From NCBI GenBank assembly GCA_048937405.1, contig JBHLNF010000002.1, forward strand, positions 224,001 through 288,000: a stretch of 64,000 nucleotides of DNA, in the 5' to 3' direction. The position numbers and the translations under genes were made by a program. Source of the stretch: Promethearchaeota archaeon (GTDB lineage Archaea > Asgardarchaeota > Lokiarchaeia > Sigyniarchaeales > SOKP01). A model generated the notes under the pieces. It was not told the DNA's origin. It did not search any database and saw only the letters and a program-made list of their open reading frames with translations. Positions 8,847-15,525 of the stretch are shown piece after piece (position 1 is the stretch's first letter; each line of letters starts with the position of its first letter).

Positions 8847-10274
8847 TTATGTAGTTATTTTCCATCTGGGTCCTTCTGCTCCATCTTCAATTTGAATTCC
8901 GACTTCTTTTAATTTTTGTCTAATTTTATCACTTAATTCATAATTTTTTTCTTTTCTTGATTGTTCTCGAATATTAATTATTATCTCCATTAATTCATTT
9001 AGTTTTTGATCATCAAAACCTTTCTTTTTTGTGAAATCAAGTCCTAGAACTCCAAGTAATTCAATAAGAGTATCTCTTGCTTTTTTAAGTAATTCTTTTT
9101 TATTATCCAGTGATGAATTAACTTGTTTTATAAATTCATAAATTGCGGCAAAAGCTTTTGGAGTATTAAAATCATCATCCATAGCTTCCTCAAAACTACT
9201 TCTTACATCTTTTATTGCTGATTTAAGTGTATCATTATTTCCACCAGTGGAATGTTCAATGTTATTCAAACAATTTCTAATTTTTTCAATGTTACTTTTG
9301 GCATTCTCTATTACTTTTGGATTCCAATCCACAGCAGATCGATAATGACTCGAAACTAGGCCCATTTTTACCACAAGTCCTCCGTGTTCATTAATTAATT
9401 CACGGGCAGTGACATAGTTTCCAAGACTTTTACTCATTTTCTGCCCATTTACAGTTATAAATTCTGCATGCATCCACCAATTAACAAACTTTTTACCTGT
9501 TGCAGCCTCAGATTGAGCAATTTCATTTGGATGATGAGTAGGAATATGATCAATTCCTCCTCCGTGAATATCTAATGTTTCTCCTAAATATTTCATTCCC
9601 ATTACCGAACATTCAAGATGCCATCCAGGATAACCTTGACCCCATGGAGAATTCCATCTCATAATGTGGATTTGATCTCCTTTTCGTGCATTTAACCATA
9701 ACGCAAAGTCATAATAATTCCTTTTTAGTGGATCTTGAGCCACACGTGCCTGTGCTTTTTCCTCATCAAATTTTAATTTGGCAAGTTTTCCATAGTCCTT
9801 AAATTTAAAAGTATCATAATATACGTTTCCTTCAACTTCATAAGCATAACCTTTTTTTAGTAAAATCTTTATGATTTCGATCATTTCGGGAATAAGTGCT
9901 GTTGCTCTAGGGGATATATTTGGTCTTTGAATATTTAGATCGTCAATATCTCTCCAATATTTTTCGATTTGTTTATCGACCAATTCCCATGGATTTATCT
10001 TTTCCTCTCTTGCTCTTTTCTCTATCTTATCTTCCCCTAGATCTGCATCATCGGTTAAATGACCTACATCTGTGAAGTTTTGAACATGACACACATCATA
10101 GCCCTTATATCGAAGGTATCTCACTACCACATCCCAAGAACTATACGTACTTGCATTACCTATATGTAGATCATCATATACTGTCTGCCCACAAGTATAT
10201 ATTTTTACGCGACCTTCCTCTATCGGTTTAAATACTTCCTTTTGCCGACTCATTGTGTTATAGATTTTAAGCAT
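8847..10274 (-). CDS. cysS: Cysteine--tRNA ligase
   Basis: YTCGQTVY..LHIGN, PGWHLECS, DIHGGG.D..HH.NE, KMSKSLGN, DDFNTP. Confidence 0.97.
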   Translation of the reverse strand: MLKIYNTMSRQKEVFKPIEEGRVKIYTCGQTVYDDLHIGNASTYSSWDVVVRYLRYKGYDVCHVQNFTDVGHLTDDADLGEDKIEKRAREEKINPWELVDKQIEKYWRDIDDLNIQRPNISPRATALIPEMIEIIKILLKKGYAYEVEGNVYYDTFKFKDYGKLAKLKFDEEKAQARVAQDPLKRNYYDFALWLNARKGDQIHIMRWNSPWGQGYPGWHLECSVMGMKYLGETLDIHGGGIDHIPTHHPNEIAQSEAATGKKFVNWWMHAEFITVNGQKMSKSLGNYVTARELINEHGGLVVKMGLVSSHYRSAVDWNPKVIENAKSNIEKIRNCLNNIEHSTGGNNDTLKSAIKDVRSSFEEAMDDDFNTPKAFAAIYEFIKQVNSSLDNKKELLKKARDTLIELLGVLGLDFTKKKGFDDQKLNELMEIIINIREQSRKEKNYELSDKIRQKLKEVGIQIEDGAEGPRWKITT

Positions 10275-10350: not shown

Positions 10351-13206
10351 CTAATTCTTCACTTCTATATGTGCCTTCACTATTTTATTTTCAATTTTCA
10401 GTTCCTTTACATCTTGTTCAGCTTCTAAATTGTAAATGATACTATCAGCTTGTATCATCTTCTTAATTTTTTCTTTATGTTGTTCCAAAGCTTCTGAAAT
10501 TTCTTTATCAGATATTTCTAAATATAAATCAATTCGATTTCTGGTTGAGAGTTTCAATTTTTTTCTATAATTATTAAAATTTCTAATAAGATTTCTAGCA
10601 ATTCCTTCTAACCTTAGTGATGGTGTAATTTTGGTATCTAGTTCTACTATTAATTCCGAGTCTACTGGCATTTCAAGAGTCACCTTTCTCACATTTATAG
10701 ATTCTGCTATTATACCTAAATATTCTTCTTCAAGATCTACTCCTTTTAAAATAACCTCATTTAAAGCTTGTCTAACTGGAATTTTAGCATTATCTCTTAA
10801 TTCTAAGGACTTTTTGACTATTTCCCGTGCTAATTCCATATCTTTTAGAACTTTTTTATCAATTAATTTACTATCAAATTCAGGCCAAAACTCTAAATGG
10901 ACAGATTCTAAATTTACAATTCCTATTTCTCTTAATTTTTGATATATTAATTCCGAAATGAATGGAGTTAAAGGAGCTATTATCTTTGATAAATTTTTTA
11001 GAATGTACGACAATGTATTCATTGCTGATCTTTTTTCATTTATATTTTCACTCTTAAATCGATTTCTACTGTTCTTAATGTACCATGTAGACAGGTCTTC
11101 TATGAATCTGAAAAATAACCTACTGACTTCAGCTGTATCATAATCATCCAATAGCAGTGTTGTATCCCTTAAAAGACTATTCAGTAAACTTATAATCCAG
11201 CGATCTAAAATATTGTCTGAAGTTGTATTTTTCATAGGTATATTTTGCATGTTAACTAAAGAATAGAATTTTAGAACATTTATCAACAATAAGTTGAATC
11301 TACGGTAGACTTGCTTTACTATCTCTTCTTTAAAATATAAATCTTGCGCCCTCATTAACTGAGATGACAATAGATATATTCTTAACGCATCAGCTCCATA
11401 TTTTTCAATTATCTGGTTTGGATCTGGGAAATTTCTTCTAGATTTTGACATCTTTGATCCATCTTCAGCAAGTATATTGCCATTTATCACAACATTTTTA
11501 AACGGAATCTCATCAAATAATAACACAGCTACCACATGCATATAGTAAAACCATGCTCTAACCTGCCCGATATACTCAGAAACAAAATCGCATGGAAAAT
11601 TATGCTTAAACCATTCCATATTCTCAAAGGGATAATGTTTAGCTGCATATGGCATTGATCCTGATTCCAACCAACAATCGAATACCTCAGGTATACGAGT
11701 CATTTTTTTACCGCAATTTGAACATTGAAGATGAATTTTATCAACTATATGTCTATGTAGATCCAAATCATCAGGAACTTCTTCTATAGCATTCTCCTGC
11801 AATTCTTTAACTGAACCAATGACTTTAATTAGCTTGCACTCTTCACATTCCCAAATGGGCATAGCAGTAGCCCAAAATCGGTTTCTTGAAATACACCAGT
11901 CAGGAGCACTCTTCATAATATTTTGATATCGTCTTGAAATTTCTTTAGGATACCAGTTGATTTTTTCATTAGTTTCCAAAAGTCTTGGTTTTATTTTTTG
12001 AATATCAATAAACCACGCATCAAGAGCGTTATATATTAAGGGTGTATCGCATCTATAACAAAATGGATAGGAATGAGTGTAATCTTCTACATTAAATAAA
12101 AGATTCCGTGTTTCTAAATCCTCCAAAACCTCATTGTCTATTTCTTTAAACCACAAGCCCCTCCATTCTTTCGGACCATCAACAAGATCACCATGTTCAT
12201 CAAGATGTTGAATTATCGGCAAATCATACTTTTTAATCATTTCATAATCAAATTCTCCATATATCGCTAAATGAATAATCCCTGTTCCTTCATCAGATAA
12301 TACATCATCACCGCCATCGAGAATGAAATACCCTTTTTTGTTAGTATTGGTAGAAATGTGATATAAAGGTTCATATTCTTTATTTAATAGAGATTTTCCT
12401 TTAAATTCATCAATGATTCTATAATCTTTTTTGATTAGATCTAATTGATTCTTTATTAGTATCAAAAATTCTTCATTAAGCTTAATTTTTACATAATCCA
12501 GTTCACTATTTACAGCTAAAGCAACATTTCCTATTAAGGTCCAAGGTGTTGTTGTCCATGCTAGCAAAAAAGTGTTTGGTTCACCTTTTAATTTGAATTT
12601 GGCAGTTATAGCTTGTTCAGTAACCTCCTTATAACTATTATCCATTGAAATCTCAGAATTAGAAAGTGGAGTTTCACATCGAGGACAATAGAATAAAACT
12701 TTTTTTCCACGCATTACAAACCCTTCATCGTAGATTTTTTTAAAAATATACCACACAGTTTCCATATAGGAATTATCCATAGTTTTATAAGAATTATCAA
12801 ACTCTATCCATTTTCCCATTCGATCAACTGTTTTTTTCCATTCATTTGTATACCAAAGCACTTTTGATCGACAAAATTCATTGAAATATGATATGCCCAT
12901 TTCGTAGATTTCATTCTTCTGCTTTAAATTGAGTTCTCTTTCACAAATACTTTCTATTGGCAAACCATGGCAATCCCAACCCCACCTTCTTTCACAGAGG
13001 TAACCTTTCATTGTCCAATATCGTGGAAATACATCTTTTGTAACAAAACTCAATATGTGTCCATAATGAGGTAAGCCAGTAGCAAATGGAGGTCCATCAT
13101 AAAAAATATATGGATTATCTTTTGGTCTATGCTCTACACTTTTCTTAAATATTTCATTTTCTTTCCAAAATCGTAGAAGTTCTACTTCTTTTTCATTATA
13201 AATAAT
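10351..13206 (-). CDS. ileS: Isoleucine--tRNA ligase, type 2/eukaryote-like (HYGH); probable ATT start
   Basis: The frame stays open 51 codons upstream of the tracked TTG and contains FYDGPPFATGLPHYGH. The next upstream stop leaves only AAA-ATT-ATT, with SD-like GGAAGGTG 6 nt before. Also GWDCHGLP, WTTTPWT, WCISR, KMSKS. Confidence 0.95.
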   Translation of the reverse strand: MIYNEKEVELLRFWKENEIFKKSVEHRPKDNPYIFYDGPPFATGLPHYGHILSFVTKDVFPRYWTMKGYLCERRWGWDCHGLPIESICERELNLKQKNEIYEMGISYFNEFCRSKVLWYTNEWKKTVDRMGKWIEFDNSYKTMDNSYMETVWYIFKKIYDEGFVMRGKKVLFYCPRCETPLSNSEISMDNSYKEVTEQAITAKFKLKGEPNTFLLAWTTTPWTLIGNVALAVNSELDYVKIKLNEEFLILIKNQLDLIKKDYRIIDEFKGKSLLNKEYEPLYHISTNTNKKGYFILDGGDDVLSDEGTGIIHLAIYGEFDYEMIKKYDLPIIQHLDEHGDLVDGPKEWRGLWFKEIDNEVLEDLETRNLLFNVEDYTHSYPFCYRCDTPLIYNALDAWFIDIQKIKPRLLETNEKINWYPKEISRRYQNIMKSAPDWCISRNRFWATAMPIWECEECKLIKVIGSVKELQENAIEEVPDDLDLHRHIVDKIHLQCSNCGKKMTRIPEVFDCWLESGSMPYAAKHYPFENMEWFKHNFPCDFVSEYIGQVRAWFYYMHVVAVLLFDEIPFKNVVINGNILAEDGSKMSKSRRNFPDPNQIIEKYGADALRIYLLSSQLMRAQDLYFKEEIVKQVYRRFNLLLINVLKFYSLVNMQNIPMKNTTSDNILDRWIISLLNSLLRDTTLLLDDYDTAEVSRLFFRFIEDLSTWYIKNSRNRFKSENINEKRSAMNTLSYILKNLSKIIAPLTPFISELIYQKLREIGIVNLESVHLEFWPEFDSKLIDKKVLKDMELAREIVKKSLELRDNAKIPVRQALNEVILKGVDLEEEYLGIIAESINVRKVTLEMPVDSELIVELDTKITPSLRLEGIARNLIRNFNNYRKKLKLSTRNRIDLYLEISDKEISEALEQHKEKIKKMIQADSIIYNLEAEQDVKELKIENKIVKAHIEVKN

Positions 13207-13267
13207 TTTTTACACCTTCCTTATGAATTTTTTTTATAAGTATCAATTTACATGACTTAAAATTATC

Positions 13268-13470
13268 AAAAAAACATCTAATTTACAAATATTAGAGAAT
13301 CTCATCATTCACATATGATTTATTAGTGAAGCAGGATGTGGAATAAAAATTAGGAAAATTCACTTCACAAATAAATGAAATTAGATAATAATAATCGTGG
13401 ATATGATCATAATCATATTTCTAATGAAACCTAAGAATTTAGTAACTATATTCATAACATCCACATCCAC
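13268..13470 (-). promoter_or_regulatory. Putative attenuator-like ileS leader region
   Basis: Complementary segments GGATGTGGA (13460-13468) with TCCACATCC (13334-13342) or ATATCCAC (13397-13404); GTGAAG (13363-13368) with CTTCAC (13326-13331); U7 tract at 13268-13274. Confidence 0.5.
13381..13455 (-). CDS. Putative Ile-rich leader peptide of ileS (MNIVTKFLGFIRNMIMIISTIIII)
   Basis: Translated by hand: 9 of 24 codons are Ile, including 7 of the last 10. In-frame GTG alternative start at 13470; TATA-like TTTATAATATAAA about 28 nt before the ATG. Confidence 0.7.
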   Translation of the reverse strand: MNIVTKFLGFIRNMIMIISTIIII

Positions 13471-13536
13471 TTTATATTATAAATAAGGTGAAATGCTCTA
13501 AAAAATATTTCGGTATTTTATCAGTTTATTTCATCA

Positions 13537-15525
13537 TTAATCCAAAAATATATAATTATGAGCTATTTTTCTTTTGTCTCTACCTGCTAGAATATGAATT
13601 TGTTTTATTGTTTTCAGTGATTCCTTACTAAAATTATCAATTTGAATATATATTAATTCGCGGTTTTTTATTCCCGCAAGTGAAAAAAAATACTTGCGTG
13701 GAGGATTTGGAGCTATATATGCAATATACCGTTCTTTTGAATAAATAATAGCAGCCTTTAGAAGACGTTCCGCTTTATTTTTAGTATCTCTATATTCATA
13801 GTCCATAAACGAATCGAAAATAGAATGCATAAATATTGCAGGAAAAATAGAAAGTAATCCTCCAACTTCTACGTGAGTGATACCAGGTCCAATTACATAA
13901 TCACCAGGATTCGTTGAATAGAAAGCCATATCACTTTCTCTATCATGTTCTGCCCACCACGTTAATTTATAAGGATATTTTTCAACTTCTCCATCATCAT
14001 TATCAAATATTACTACAATAGTATCAATTTTGCCTTGAATTTGTTGGATATTTTGAACATAAATTTTTTTCTTAAATGCCCAATTTCGAATAGTTTCTTT
14101 AATAGCAATCCCATCCATTAAACTAGATTTGAATTCTTCAATCTTAATTCTCTGATTTTTCAAATTTTTTATACTCTTCTTTCTAATAAACGCAAAGTAA
14201 TCTTCCTCTATAATATCTTCAGGAGGCCAAGAAACTGTGTAGTCTTTTCCCTTTTCCCATTTATCTCTCCATTCTCCTAAGTATTTTTCTTCAGGTCTTT
14301 CTTTTAATGGTACTTCTTTTTCTTTACCATAGGTATAAGGATGATGTCTACGTAATCTTATGTAACGGCCGCTTGGATCATAACCCCCTTCTAAACCCAT
14401 TTTCAATGTTTCATAATTATCACTCTCATCATTATAAGGATATTTAGTAGCTTTTTCCATGACTTTCCACGCATAATCATCATCTACAATATTTTTTGAA
14501 CTGGTTAATAAGTGATATAAATTCGGTAATAATCTTTGATCTGCTAATGAGAGATTCCTTGAATACTGAAATAATGTTTTTAATTTATGAAGGTCTACAA
14601 ATTCCTTGAATTCCTCTTCATATTCGTACTTTGCTTTGATTAAAATAGTCCTAATCTGTTCAATTTTATCATAAGAATTTAAAACACTATAAAGCTCATC
14701 AGGAGTCTCTATGCGTTCCAATGTTTCTTTTGAAAACTCACCTCTAAATTTTAACCATTTATATATATGATATGGCAACTCTCTTAAAATGAATCTGGCA
14801 TCAGAACCTTTTATATTGTAAATTTTTACATACTTATGAGGAACTAACTCCAAATCTACATCTTTGATTTTTTCTGGATTTTCTATATAATATTTAATAT
14901 TTTCCCAATGAGCCATACCGATAATAAGTAAAACCCTATGATATATTGACATTAATTTTAAAAGGTGGGCAGCCATATACTTCTCTCTAAGAATATCTTT
15001 TTCAATGAAATTATATTTTTGATCCACATTTTCTTGATTTTCAAGAAAATCCTCTAAATTTACTTGATCTATTAGCATATCTTTTTCAGTTTTAAACTCG
15101 TTTTGAAAGTATTTCGCTATTTGTTCATAGAATGTAGGAAGTCCAATCTGATTAATAGCATAATCATCTGGTAATTTAATGCTGGGAGGTAAATATTCTG
15201 AAACTGAAAGATCAATGAATTCAATTGGAATATTATGCTCAAGCCCAATTCGGATACTTTCCATAATGGAATCTCCAGGATCTACAGGAATATAATTCAA
15301 TCTTTTTGGATTCAATGTATCCGCATATCCAATTAAGGATAAAAAAGGCAATCGTTCAATCGCTTCTATTACTTCGTCTTGAACGTTATTCGGTAATTCT
15401 ACAGCAATAACGTCAGGAAAAACTTTAAATAATCCTGTACGGACCAATTTCGCAAATTCTATACGAGAATGAAAGGTTGGGATAACATAAATATTCTTAA
15501 ATTTAATATAAGGATGTTCTATCAT
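13537..15525 (-). CDS. Conserved hypothetical protein, N-terminus with TraB/ChaN-like motifs
   Basis: PTFH, PDVIAVELP, REKYMA, VLLIIGMAHW pattern; 662 aa. Confidence 0.5.
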   Translation of the reverse strand: MIEHPYIKFKNIYVIPTFHSRIEFAKLVRTGLFKVFPDVIAVELPNNVQDEVIEAIERLPFLSLIGYADTLNPKRLNYIPVDPGDSIMESIRIGLEHNIPIEFIDLSVSEYLPPSIKLPDDYAINQIGLPTFYEQIAKYFQNEFKTEKDMLIDQVNLEDFLENQENVDQKYNFIEKDILREKYMAAHLLKLMSIYHRVLLIIGMAHWENIKYYIENPEKIKDVDLELVPHKYVKIYNIKGSDARFILRELPYHIYKWLKFRGEFSKETLERIETPDELYSVLNSYDKIEQIRTILIKAKYEYEEEFKEFVDLHKLKTLFQYSRNLSLADQRLLPNLYHLLTSSKNIVDDDYAWKVMEKATKYPYNDESDNYETLKMGLEGGYDPSGRYIRLRRHHPYTYGKEKEVPLKERPEEKYLGEWRDKWEKGKDYTVSWPPEDIIEEDYFAFIRKKSIKNLKNQRIKIEEFKSSLMDGIAIKETIRNWAFKKKIYVQNIQQIQGKIDTIVVIFDNDDGEVEKYPYKLTWWAEHDRESDMAFYSTNPGDYVIGPGITHVEVGGLLSIFPAIFMHSIFDSFMDYEYRDTKNKAERLLKAAIIYSKERYIAYIAPNPPRKYFFSLAGIKNRELIYIQIDNFSKESLKTIKQIHILAGRDKRKIAHNYIFLD

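What the first reader, a model, noticed from the sequence alone, without database searches (positions are those of the whole stretch)
13268..13483. Ile-rich leader peptide and alternative RNA pairings upstream of ileS: attenuation-like control in an archaeon
Seen: an untracked 24-codon ORF (13455-13381) ending MIMIISTIIII uses all three Ile codons (ATT x5, ATC x2, ATA x2) and stops 174 nt before ileS. GC-containing complementary segments could pair in mutually exclusive ways, one lying within the Ile run, and a U7 tract follows. Known: cognate-amino-acid leader peptides control bacterial biosynthetic operons and pheST, but are not well established in archaea. Inference: ribosome stalling on Ile codons regulates ileS and possibly the downstream cysS. 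Caveats: Ile is common in AT-rich genomes, and if the transcript is leaderless from the ATG the 5'-most pairing segment is not transcribed.
Basis: partly seen in the sequence, partly recalled or inferred. Interest (0 to 1): 0.85.

Follow-up and report, generated by a model that had tools for sequence, protein, structure and literature searches.

The report
Isoleucine-sensing leader peptide before archaeal ileS
In front of a second isoleucyl-tRNA synthetase gene of this Asgard archaeon lies a tiny translated gene that always ends in three AUU isoleucine codons, inside a conserved folded RNA leader. This is the hallmark of the ribosome-based amino-acid gauges of bacteria, and I found no published report of such a gauge in archaea.

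Summary
The 24-codon uORF (13455-13381, minus strand) reads MNIVTKFLGFIRNMIMIISTIIII*.

- **Conservation:** the uORF and the GC-containing segments around it are kept upstream of every orthologue of this ileS found, in 39 distinct Promethearchaeota (Asgard) leaders from two genera.
- **Translated frame:** the frame is open in 36/36 leaders and the other two frames in 0/36. Indels come in multiples of three.
- **Invariant coding feature:** only ATT-ATT-ATT is invariant, placed 0-2 codons before the stop.
- **RNA helices:** three helices are conserved. H1 (segment 1 with segment 2) and H3 (segment 3 with segment 4b) show compensatory changes. In one divergent leader a G-to-A change in segment 1 is matched in both of its partners.
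- **The gene:** it is an accessory, MupA/MupB-like IleRS. A second IleRS gene lies elsewhere in the genome.
- **A class, not a one-off:** the same genome has cognate-codon leaders before leuS, cimA and leuA, and a candidate one before argJ.

The way the signal reaches ileS is not established. No terminator hairpin adjoins the U7 tract, the transcription start is unmapped and no RNA data could be obtained.

Earlier notes of this scan report similar leaders before leuA, trp, shikimate and ilvB genes in other archaeal genomes. A leader before a tRNA synthetase gene is new here. I found no publication on archaeal leader-peptide control.

The parts
13497..13517 (-). Conserved AATACCG-N-AATATTTTTTAGA box, the candidate BRE/TATA of the leader. 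A start about 23-25 nt downstream of it would put the RNA 5' end just before segment 1.
   Evidence: Conserved in all leaders, including those with a different upstream neighbour. The promoter role is inferred from spacing only.
13471..13486 (-). Second TATA-like box (TTATTTATAATATAAA) that abuts segment 1. If this box is the promoter, the uORF is leaderless and segment 1 is not transcribed.
   Evidence: Sequence; conserved. Which box is used is not resolved.
13458..13470 (-). Segment 1, GTGGATGTGGATG. Its core GGATGTGG (13468-13461) pairs either with segment 2 (helix H1) or with segment 4a (helix H2). It may also serve as an SD-like site 6 nt before the uORF ATG.
   Evidence: The core is invariant in 38/39 leaders. 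The single G-to-A change (L185) is matched in both partners.
13381..13455 (-). Leader uORF of 24 codons plus stop: MNIVTKFLGFIRNMIMIISTIIII*.
   Evidence: ATG lies at a fixed offset (GTG in one leader). The frame is open in 36/36 leaders and the other frames in 0/36. Indels are -6, -12 and +3 nt. The N-terminal half is free to vary.
13397..13404 (-). Segment 2, ATATCCAC (codons 18-20), the 3' strand of helix H1. It ends one codon before the Ile run, so it sits inside a ribosome stalled there.
   Evidence: H1 is 95-96% paired. Pair types: UA/UG/CG at cols 6-77, GU/GC at 11-72, GC/AU/GU at 7-76.
13384..13395 (-). Regulatory Ile codons ATT ATT ATT ATC, followed by TAA.
   Evidence: ATT x3 is invariant in all leaders (108/108 codons). 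The codon before it and the 0-2 codons after it vary freely.
13361..13375 (-). 5' arm of hairpin H3 (TTTATTTGTGAAGTG; core segment 3 is GTGAAGTG). It starts 8 nt after the stop codon.
   Evidence: RNAalifold consensus. Covariation at 117-151 (GC 32, AU 7), 118-150 (CG 15, UG 14, UA 10) and 112-156 (AU/GU/GC).
13334..13341 (-). Segment 4a, CCACATCC, in the 3' part of the 27-nt U/C-rich loop of H3. It is the perfect complement of the segment 1 core (helix H2, a pseudoknot with H3).
   Evidence: 99.7% paired. One compensatory change (GC to AU in L185) and three wobble-preserving changes (one UG, two GU).
13319..13333 (-). 3' arm of hairpin H3 (TGCTTCAC plus TAATAAA).
13268..13274 (-). U7 tract, a candidate archaeal oligo-U termination site. 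Alternatively it is part of a T-rich promoter of ileS itself.
   Evidence: A run of >=5 T lies 57-78 nt after segment 4a in 29/36 leaders. It is absent in the genus-g22 clade and in L059. Its function was not tested.
13213..13220 (-). SD-like GGAAGGTG of ileS.
   Evidence: Sequence. (A)GGTG is conserved 7-9 nt before the homologous start position.
10351..13206 (-). ileS paralogue (951 aa): a type-2, MupA/MupB-like isoleucyl-tRNA synthetase. It starts at ATT in this genome.
   Evidence: TIGR00392 at 825 bits (cut-off 621); MupB at 703 bits and MupA at 676 bits, both below the 1900 cut-off. A second IleRS gene lies at G000:C18.
8847..10274 (-). cysS, 76 nt downstream of ileS. It is possibly co-transcribed.
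   Evidence: TIGR00435 at 505 bits (cut-off 340). Co-regulation was not tested.

Best explanation
The 330-bp spacer before the accessory type-2 ileS is a structured 5' leader RNA that contains a translated 24-codon mini-gene. Its only invariant coding feature is AUU-AUU-AUU, placed 0-2 codons before the stop. The speed at which a ribosome reads these codons reports the supply of charged tRNA-Ile.

**Proposed switch.** Segment 2 (AUAUCCAC) ends one codon before the Ile run and pairs with segment 1 (GUGGAUGU) near the 5' end, forming helix H1. A ribosome stalled on the Ile run holds segment 2 in its mRNA channel. Segment 1 is then free to pair with the invariant CCACAUCC (segment 4a). That segment is displayed in the loop of the long hairpin H3, which begins 8 nt after the stop. 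The new pairing is helix H2, a pseudoknot with H3.

**Inferred states.** I infer that H2 plus H3 is the 'on' state, in which transcription or translation reaches ileS and perhaps cysS. H1 with a free U/C-rich loop would be the 'off' state. In it, transcripts end at the downstream oligo-U tract or are cut or terminated by a factor.

**Physiology.** The resistant-type second IleRS would be induced when Ile-tRNA charging fails, through Ile shortage or inhibition of the housekeeping IleRS.

**Shown:** the uORF, its frame, the codon run, the three helices and their conservation, and the linkage to ileS.
**Inferred:** that the uORF is translated, the direction of the switch, and the output step.
For: - The leader is present upstream of every orthologue found: 14/14, 36, and all 33 Promethearchaeota loci. 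It is absent from DPANN and bacterial homologues.
- It stays with ileS where the upstream neighbour differs.
- The uORF frame is open in 36/36 leaders against 0/36 for the other frames. The start is at a fixed position and indels come in threes.
- ATT x3 is invariant (108/108 codons), while flanking codons and the other Ile codons vary.
- H1 and H3 are 95-97% paired against <=50% when the partner is slid. Six pairs have changes on both sides, and 0/500 shuffles reach the observed score.
- H2 is 99.7% paired, with a GC-to-AU double change in L185 that is also matched in H1.
- G.U intermediates occur in several lineages.
- The same genome has cognate-codon leaders before leuS (LeuRS), cimA, leuA and argJ. 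Those before leuS, cimA and leuA are conserved in relatives with their codon run. In the argJ leaders the Arg run is only partly kept.
Against: - There is no expression, transcription-start or ribosome data.
- A TATA-like box abuts segment 1. If it is the promoter, the uORF is leaderless and H1 and H2 cannot form in RNA.
- H3 is not followed by a U run. The U7 tract lies about 65 nt further on, a run of five or more T is absent in 7/36 leaders, and it could belong to a promoter of ileS itself.
- Single-sequence folding with ribosome masks shows no clean switch. It favours a long-range segment 1 with segment 4 pairing in every state.
- The compensatory changes rest on a few independent events among related genomes.
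- No conserved pairing to the ileS ribosome-binding site was seen on inspection of the alignments.
Confidence: 0.75

Rival explanations
1. The repeated GGATG/CATCC motifs (segments 1, 2 and 4a) are DNA operators of a transcription factor. The factor would bind between the TATA box and a leaderless start, and the uORF's Ile run would be incidental.
For: A TATA-like box directly abuts segment 1, at the usual archaeal distance (about 20-25 nt) from the ATG. The motif occurs three times, in direct and inverted orientation. The concerted change of all three copies in L185 could also reflect co-evolution with a binding protein.
Against: - Changes in single copies are those that keep G.U or U.G pairs, which are RNA-compatible but would be mismatches to a DNA motif.
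- The 11-mer occurs elsewhere in the genome only inside coding sequence that encodes G-C-G.
- This rival does not explain the open frame in 36/36 leaders, the indels in threes, the invariant ATT x3, or the parallel leaders with other cognate codons.
Confidence: 0.07
2. The uORF region is a separate small transcription unit (a micropeptide or small RNA gene). ileS is transcribed from its own promoter in the T-rich stretch around 13290-13230, so the uORF does not control ileS in cis.
For: TATA-like T/A-rich sequences lie 40-90 nt before the ileS start in both genera, e.g. TTTATAAAATAA in genus g22. There is no terminator hairpin. The peptide is hydrophobic at its C-terminus.
Against: - The element is found only upstream of this ileS, in the same orientation, in every genome that has the gene, whatever lies upstream.
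- The peptide sequence is poorly conserved apart from the Ile codons, and its polar, Lys-rich N-half is not a membrane helix.
- Cognate pairing of run and gene recurs at four other loci.
Confidence: 0.1
3. The uORF is translated and acts in cis, but not as an amino-acid gauge. It could be a constitutive translational barrier, a coupling element, or a stabiliser of the leader, with Ile codons reflecting AT-rich sequence and RNA constraints.
For: The ATT triplet is invariant at nucleotide level, with no ATC or ATA. That could mean an RNA-level constraint rather than a codon constraint. Ile is 10.7% of codons in this genome.
Against: No conserved partner for AUUAUUAUU was found in the consensus fold. 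The run matches the amino acid of the downstream gene here and at leuS, leuA, cimA and argJ. Among only 16 Ile or Leu candidates genome-wide, four precede cognate genes.
Confidence: 0.06

Closest known systems
E. coli pheST attenuator with the pheM leader peptide
   Same: A short leader ORF with a run of codons for the amino acid that the downstream tRNA synthetase charges, embedded in alternative RNA pairings.
   Different: - pheM works through a hairpin-plus-U intrinsic terminator next to the leader ORF. Here the conserved hairpin has no adjoining U run.
- One pairing here is a pseudoknot with a hairpin loop.
- The organism is an archaeon with a different RNA polymerase and different termination rules.
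- There is no sequence relation: no Rfam family reached its gathering score.
Enterobacterial biosynthetic leaders (trpL, leuL, ilvL, hisL, thrL, pheL)
   Same: Regulatory codons cognate to the pathway. The ribosome's position chooses between mutually exclusive helices.
   Different: - In this leader the codon run sits at the very end of the ORF, 0-2 codons from the stop.
- The ribosome-masked strand lies upstream of the run, not downstream.
- The terminator part of the classical four-segment scheme was tested and not found.
Mycobacterial polycysteine leaderless short ORFs acting as Cys-responsive attenuators (bioRxiv 10.1101/834739, listed; abstract only read)
   Same: Short ORFs at or near the 5' end of the transcript whose cognate-codon run tunes downstream genes. 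This is relevant if the uORF here is leaderless.
   Different: That system is bacterial and its details were not read here. This leader has a conserved GC-rich segment before the ATG that behaves as a paired RNA strand.
T-box leaders of Firmicute ileS, and the ileS1/ileS2 pair of Bacilli (own knowledge)
   Same: Expression of an IleRS gene is tied to tRNA-Ile charging. The genome holds a housekeeping IleRS plus a MupA/MupB-like one.
   Different: A T-box binds uncharged tRNA directly and has no translated ORF. No T-box match was found here, and here the frame is conserved.

Membership tests
Ribosome-mediated leader-peptide attenuator (trpL/pheM type) | A short ORF in the 5' leader that is translated | tested here: inconclusive
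   Comparative signs of translation are strong: the frame is open in 36/36 leaders against 0/36 for the other frames, the ATG is fixed, and indels are -6, -12 and +3 nt. No ribosome or RNA data could be had.
Ribosome-mediated leader-peptide attenuator (trpL/pheM type) | A run of regulatory codons for the amino acid handled by the downstream gene | tested here: met
   ATT x3 is invariant in 39 leaders before an IleRS gene.
Ribosome-mediated leader-peptide attenuator (trpL/pheM type) | Mutually exclusive RNA helices, one strand of which is covered by a ribosome stalled at the regulatory codons | tested here: met
   H1 and H2 share segment 1. Segment 2 ends 1 codon before the run. Pairing and covariation were counted. 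That the helices switch in vivo is inferred.
Ribosome-mediated leader-peptide attenuator (trpL/pheM type) | An intrinsic terminator (hairpin directly followed by a U run) as one of the alternative structures | tested here: not met
   H3 is followed by A-rich sequence. The U7 tract lies about 65 nt after segment 4a, and a run of five or more T is missing in 7/36 leaders.
Ribosome-mediated leader-peptide attenuator (trpL/pheM type) | Downstream expression responds to the cognate amino acid or charged tRNA | not testable with these tools
   This needs culture or reporter work.
Rfam leader and T-box families | Match to a curated covariance model | tested here: not met
   cmscan of 12800-13900 on both strands: best E-value 0.66, and every hit far below its gathering score.
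Isoleucyl-tRNA synthetase, type 2 (MupA/MupB-like) | IleRS equivalog score above cut-off, and closest to the Mup models | tested here: met
   TIGR00392 at 824.7 bits against a cut-off of 621.4. MupB at 703 bits and MupA at 676 bits are the next best hits. They fall below the 1900-bit 'exception' cut-off, so resistance itself is not implied.

The most novel reading that the evidence does not exclude
Promethearchaeota (Asgard archaea) run a whole set of ribosome-read amino-acid gauges. They stand before tRNA synthetase genes (ileS2, leuS) and first-step biosynthetic genes (cimA, leuA, perhaps argJ).

The common design differs from the bacterial one: a cognate codon run sits next to the stop, followed at once by a long hairpin with a U/C-rich loop. 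The output goes through archaeal oligo-U or factor-dependent termination rather than through a hairpin terminator.

The ileS2 leader would make a resistant-type IleRS inducible when the housekeeping enzyme is inhibited. Short III-ending uORFs before the related ileS of Nanoarchaeia hint that the gene and its leader may have travelled together.
Probability: 0.4. Interest if true: 0.92.

Novelty: new variant of a known kind. Interest (0 to 1): 0.85.

Why it matters
Leader-peptide attenuation is a textbook consequence of coupled transcription and translation in bacteria. I found no published case in archaea.

- **A concrete, mutable system.** A conserved, covarying, cognate-codon leader before a tRNA synthetase gene in the closest prokaryotic relatives of eukaryotes offers three AUU codons and three short pairings to change. 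With them one can ask how archaeal ribosomes talk to archaeal RNA polymerase or to mRNA fate.
- **A regulatory network.** With the sister leaders in the same genome, it suggests a network for branched-chain amino acids that can be predicted from sequence alone.
- **An ecological reading.** The regulated gene is a second, MupA/MupB-like IleRS. The leader may be an inducible defence against natural IleRS inhibitors.

Tried and rejected
- **RNA-seq and read evidence.** I did not try another route, so transcription start, termination and expression are untested.
- **Rfam.** Nothing near any gathering score.
- **Segment 1 as a common operator.** The other four genomic copies of GTGGATGTGGA lie in coding sequence for G-C-G motifs.
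- **A stop-proximal hairpin (H4, cols 98-107 with 115-124).** Only 87% paired, and one position is unpaired in 16 sequences. I dropped it as a conserved helix.
- **Pairing between the leader and the ileS ribosome-binding site.** No conserved complement was seen on inspecting the alignments.
- **Ribosome-masked folding of the window's own leader.** No clean switch. A long-range segment 1 with segment 4 helix wins in all states.
- **The 16S rRNA 3' end in the assembly, to judge SD pairing.** Not found.
- **Leaders before the other class-Ia synthetase genes.** None was seen before the housekeeping IleRS, the 915-aa gene or the 929-aa gene. One was found before the 962-aa LeuRS.
- **Other sORFs with codon runs.** These preceded L10, MenB-like, NifS-like and unassigned genes and had no cognate link.

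Full report
**1. The observation.**

On the minus strand the spacer between an unassigned 662-aa gene (stop at 13537) and ileS holds ATG 13455 ... TAA 13381. This encodes MNIVTKFLGFIRNMIMIISTIIII with 9 Ile codons: ATT x5, ATC x2 and ATA x2.

The ileS frame is closed by TAA at 13212-13210 and has no in-frame ATG, GTG or TTG before the HYGH motif. In this genome it must therefore start at ATT 13206, which lies 174 nt after the uORF stop and 6 nt after GGAAGGTG. The U7 tract is 13274-13268.

The complementary segments exist as described. One correction applies: the segment inside the uORF (ATATCCAC, 13404-13397) ends one codon before the Ile run and does not lie within it.

**2. What the gene is.**

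The downstream protein is an isoleucyl-tRNA synthetase. TIGR00392 scores 825 bits against a cut-off of 621. Its next-best models are the mupirocin-resistant MupB and MupA (703 and 676 bits, below their 1900-bit cut-off).

cysS follows after 76 nt. The genome has a second, 1048-aa IleRS gene on another contig, 35% identical over the N-terminal part compared. The window copy occurs in only part of the genus.

The relatives are named Promethearchaeota MAGs. The nearest homologues outside them are in DPANN archaea (60-68% identity) and CPR bacteria.

**3. Conservation of the leader.**

- All 13 orthologues first fetched carry the same arrangement upstream.
- A DNA search of the family found it in two genera, giving 36 leaders.
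- The wider scan added three more distinct ones. It showed the element in all 33 Promethearchaeota loci and in none of the DPANN or bacterial loci.
- The element stays with ileS where the upstream neighbour differs.

Within the leader:
- The ATG lies 13 nt after GGATGTGG in 35 of 36 leaders and is GTG in one.
- The ORF has 20-25 codons. Indels are -6, -12 and +3 nt.
- The frame is open in 36/36 leaders, while both other frames are closed in all 36.
- The N-terminal half varies freely.
- The only invariant coding feature is ATT ATT ATT followed by 0-2 variable codons and a stop. The endings seen are IIII, IIIR, IIIG, IIIS, IIIQ, IIIN, IIIE and III.
- All 108 codons of the triplet are ATT. Yet long ORFs of this genome use ATT 53%, ATA 34% and ATC 13%, and the other Ile codons of the same uORFs are mixed.

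**4. RNA helices.**

I counted pairs on the 36- and 39-sequence alignments (A1, A2).

| Helix | Strands | Cells paired | Pair types that vary |
|---|---|---|---|
| H1 | GUGGAUGU with AUAUCCAC | 95-96% | UA 23 / UG 6 / CG 6; GU 28 / GC 11; GC 35 / AU 1 / GU 1 |
| H3 | GUGAAGUG with UGCUUCAC | 97% | GC 32 / AU 7; CG 15 / UG 14 / UA 10; AU 19 / GU 10 / GC 5 |
| H2 | GGAUGUGG with CCACAUCC | 99.7% | almost invariant; see below |

- RNAalifold extends H3 to about 15 bp.
- For H1 plus H3 together, no shuffle of 500 reaches the observed score. Sliding the partner drops pairing to 50% or less.
- H2 is almost invariant. In the most divergent leader (L185) the first G of the core is A. The partner C is U in segment 4a and also in segment 2.
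- Single-sided changes elsewhere keep G.U or U.G pairs.
- H1 and H2 share segment 1 and so exclude each other.
- Segment 4a lies in the loop of H3, so H2 plus H3 is a pseudoknot.
- A stop-proximal hairpin I also considered (H4) is poorly supported.

**5. The leader belongs to a class.**

I scanned the whole genome for ATG-sORFs of 10-45 codons that have three identical codons near the stop and lie up to 350 nt upstream of a long ORF. Only 53 candidates came out. Four of the 16 Ile or Leu candidates precede cognate genes:

| Codon run | Downstream gene | Family score (cut-off) |
|---|---|---|
| Ile | this ileS | TIGR00392, 825 bits (621) |
| Ile | citramalate synthase cimA | TIGR00977, 677 bits (450) |
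| Leu | a LeuRS gene | TIGR00395, 914 bits (648.5) |
| Leu | 2-isopropylmalate synthase leuA | NF002085, 563 bits (517) |

A looser scan added CGT-CGC-CGT before argJ.

Conservation of these sister leaders:
- The leuS leader keeps ...AVLLL(S)* with TTA x3 in 27 of 30 loci, plus a perfect 12-13-bp hairpin right after the stop.
- The cimA leader keeps an Ile-rich ORF (...IIIGIII*) and a 14-bp hairpin in more than 20 genomes of eight genera.
- The leuA leader is kept in five genomes.
- The argJ leader is kept in eight genomes, though its Arg run is kept only in part.

All share one plan: a codon run next to the stop, then at once a long hairpin with a U/C-rich loop. As a rough estimate of my own, with some thousands of genes and a handful of cognate targets per amino acid, fewer than 0.1 such coincidences are expected among 16 candidates.

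**6. Mechanism.**

The evidence fits a ribosome that gauges charged tRNA-Ile on the three AUU codons. A ribosome stalled there covers segment 2, so segment 1 can pair with the loop of H3 (H2). Without a stall, H1 forms and the loop is free. I take the stalled state to be 'on' because the regulated genes are needed when charging fails.

How the state reaches ileS is open:
- H3 has no adjoining U run.
- The U7 tract lies about 65 nt further on, a run of five or more T is missing in 7 of 36 leaders, and it may instead belong to a promoter of ileS.
- Folding the window's leader with ribosome masks gives no clean switch.

Oligo-U termination, factor-dependent termination on the U/C-rich loop, and RNA stability are all possible.

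The transcription start is unknown, because two TATA-like boxes compete.
- The box at 13517-13497 would place the 5' end just before segment 1.
- The box at 13486-13471 would make the uORF leaderless. That appears to be the case for the leuS and cimA leaders, judged from spacing.
- The RNA-like evolution of segment 1 argues for the first option.

**7. Comparison and novelty.**

Functionally the closest case is the pheM-pheST attenuator of E. coli, followed by the classical biosynthetic leaders. The terminator feature of that family was tested and is not met, and no Rfam family matches.

Full-text searches gave no paper on leader-peptide attenuation in archaea or Asgard archaea.

Earlier AI notes of this scan describe similar leaders before leuA, trp, shikimate and ilvB genes in other archaeal genomes. 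My independent finding of the leuA and cimA leaders in this genome agrees with them. A leader before a tRNA synthetase gene, and the H1/H2 pseudoknot design, are new here.

I rate this a new variant of a known kind, of high interest. About 0.75 confidence applies to the gauge itself, and much less to the details of the switch.

Noticed in passing
window 13201-13220 (minus strand): In this genome ileS can only start at ATT, because an in-frame TAA follows the GTG of GGAAGGTG. At the homologous position orthologues have ATT, ATA, ATG or TTG, and many could instead start at the in-frame GTG 9 nt upstream.
   Followed up: partly
L068:2955-3180 (= G000:C22, minus strand), upstream of a 962-aa LeuRS gene: A 28-codon uORF, MNLNKTALNINLRDLVSLVKLHAVLLLS*, with TTA x3 one codon before the stop. 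A hairpin follows: GCGAAACAAATCC...GGATTTGTTCGC in most relatives, diverged in G000 itself. The uORF is kept in 27/30 related loci.
   Followed up: partly
L103:150-300 (= G000:C20:77276-), upstream of citramalate synthase cimA: An Ile-rich uORF, MKLKLKPIIGIIAIFIIIIGIII*, followed by a 14-bp hairpin with a U-rich loop. It is conserved in more than 20 genomes of eight genera.
   Followed up: partly
L100:1650-1810 (= G000:C7, minus strand), upstream of leuA: A uORF ending LLSLLLLLLL* before 2-isopropylmalate synthase, kept in five genomes.
   Followed up: partly
L235:1243-1485 (= G000:C7, minus strand), upstream of argJ: A uORF ending ...SARRRL* that uses CGT CGC CGT. A hairpin (GAAGTG...CACTTC) and several T runs follow it. 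The hairpin and T runs are conserved in eight genomes, but the Arg run only in part.
   Followed up: partly
L192:430-520, L224:440-520, L194:480-580 (Nanoarchaeia ileS loci): Short uORFs MKFIINKIIIE*, MKLIINIIIA* and MQQSFLSVKIIIQ* lie 74-123 nt before the related ileS. Each is followed by a small hairpin, and in L194 a U6 run follows the hairpin. The gauge may predate, or have travelled with, the Asgard copy of the gene.
   Followed up: no
G000:C18:103262-106405 (minus strand); N-terminal part held as L236:3-1406: A second, 1048-aa IleRS gene, present in most genomes of the genus. I saw no Ile-run uORF in its 400-nt upstream region. The window copy is the accessory one and groups with DPANN and CPR sequences.
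   Followed up: partly
L099 (= G000:C7:244765-246234), upstream of the ribosomal protein L10 gene: The sORF MRRRNLRKNLPKNMIILLLKIK* is followed by the most stable hairpin of the scan (-24.5 kcal/mol). This is probably an r-protein operon leader and not an amino-acid gauge.
   Followed up: no
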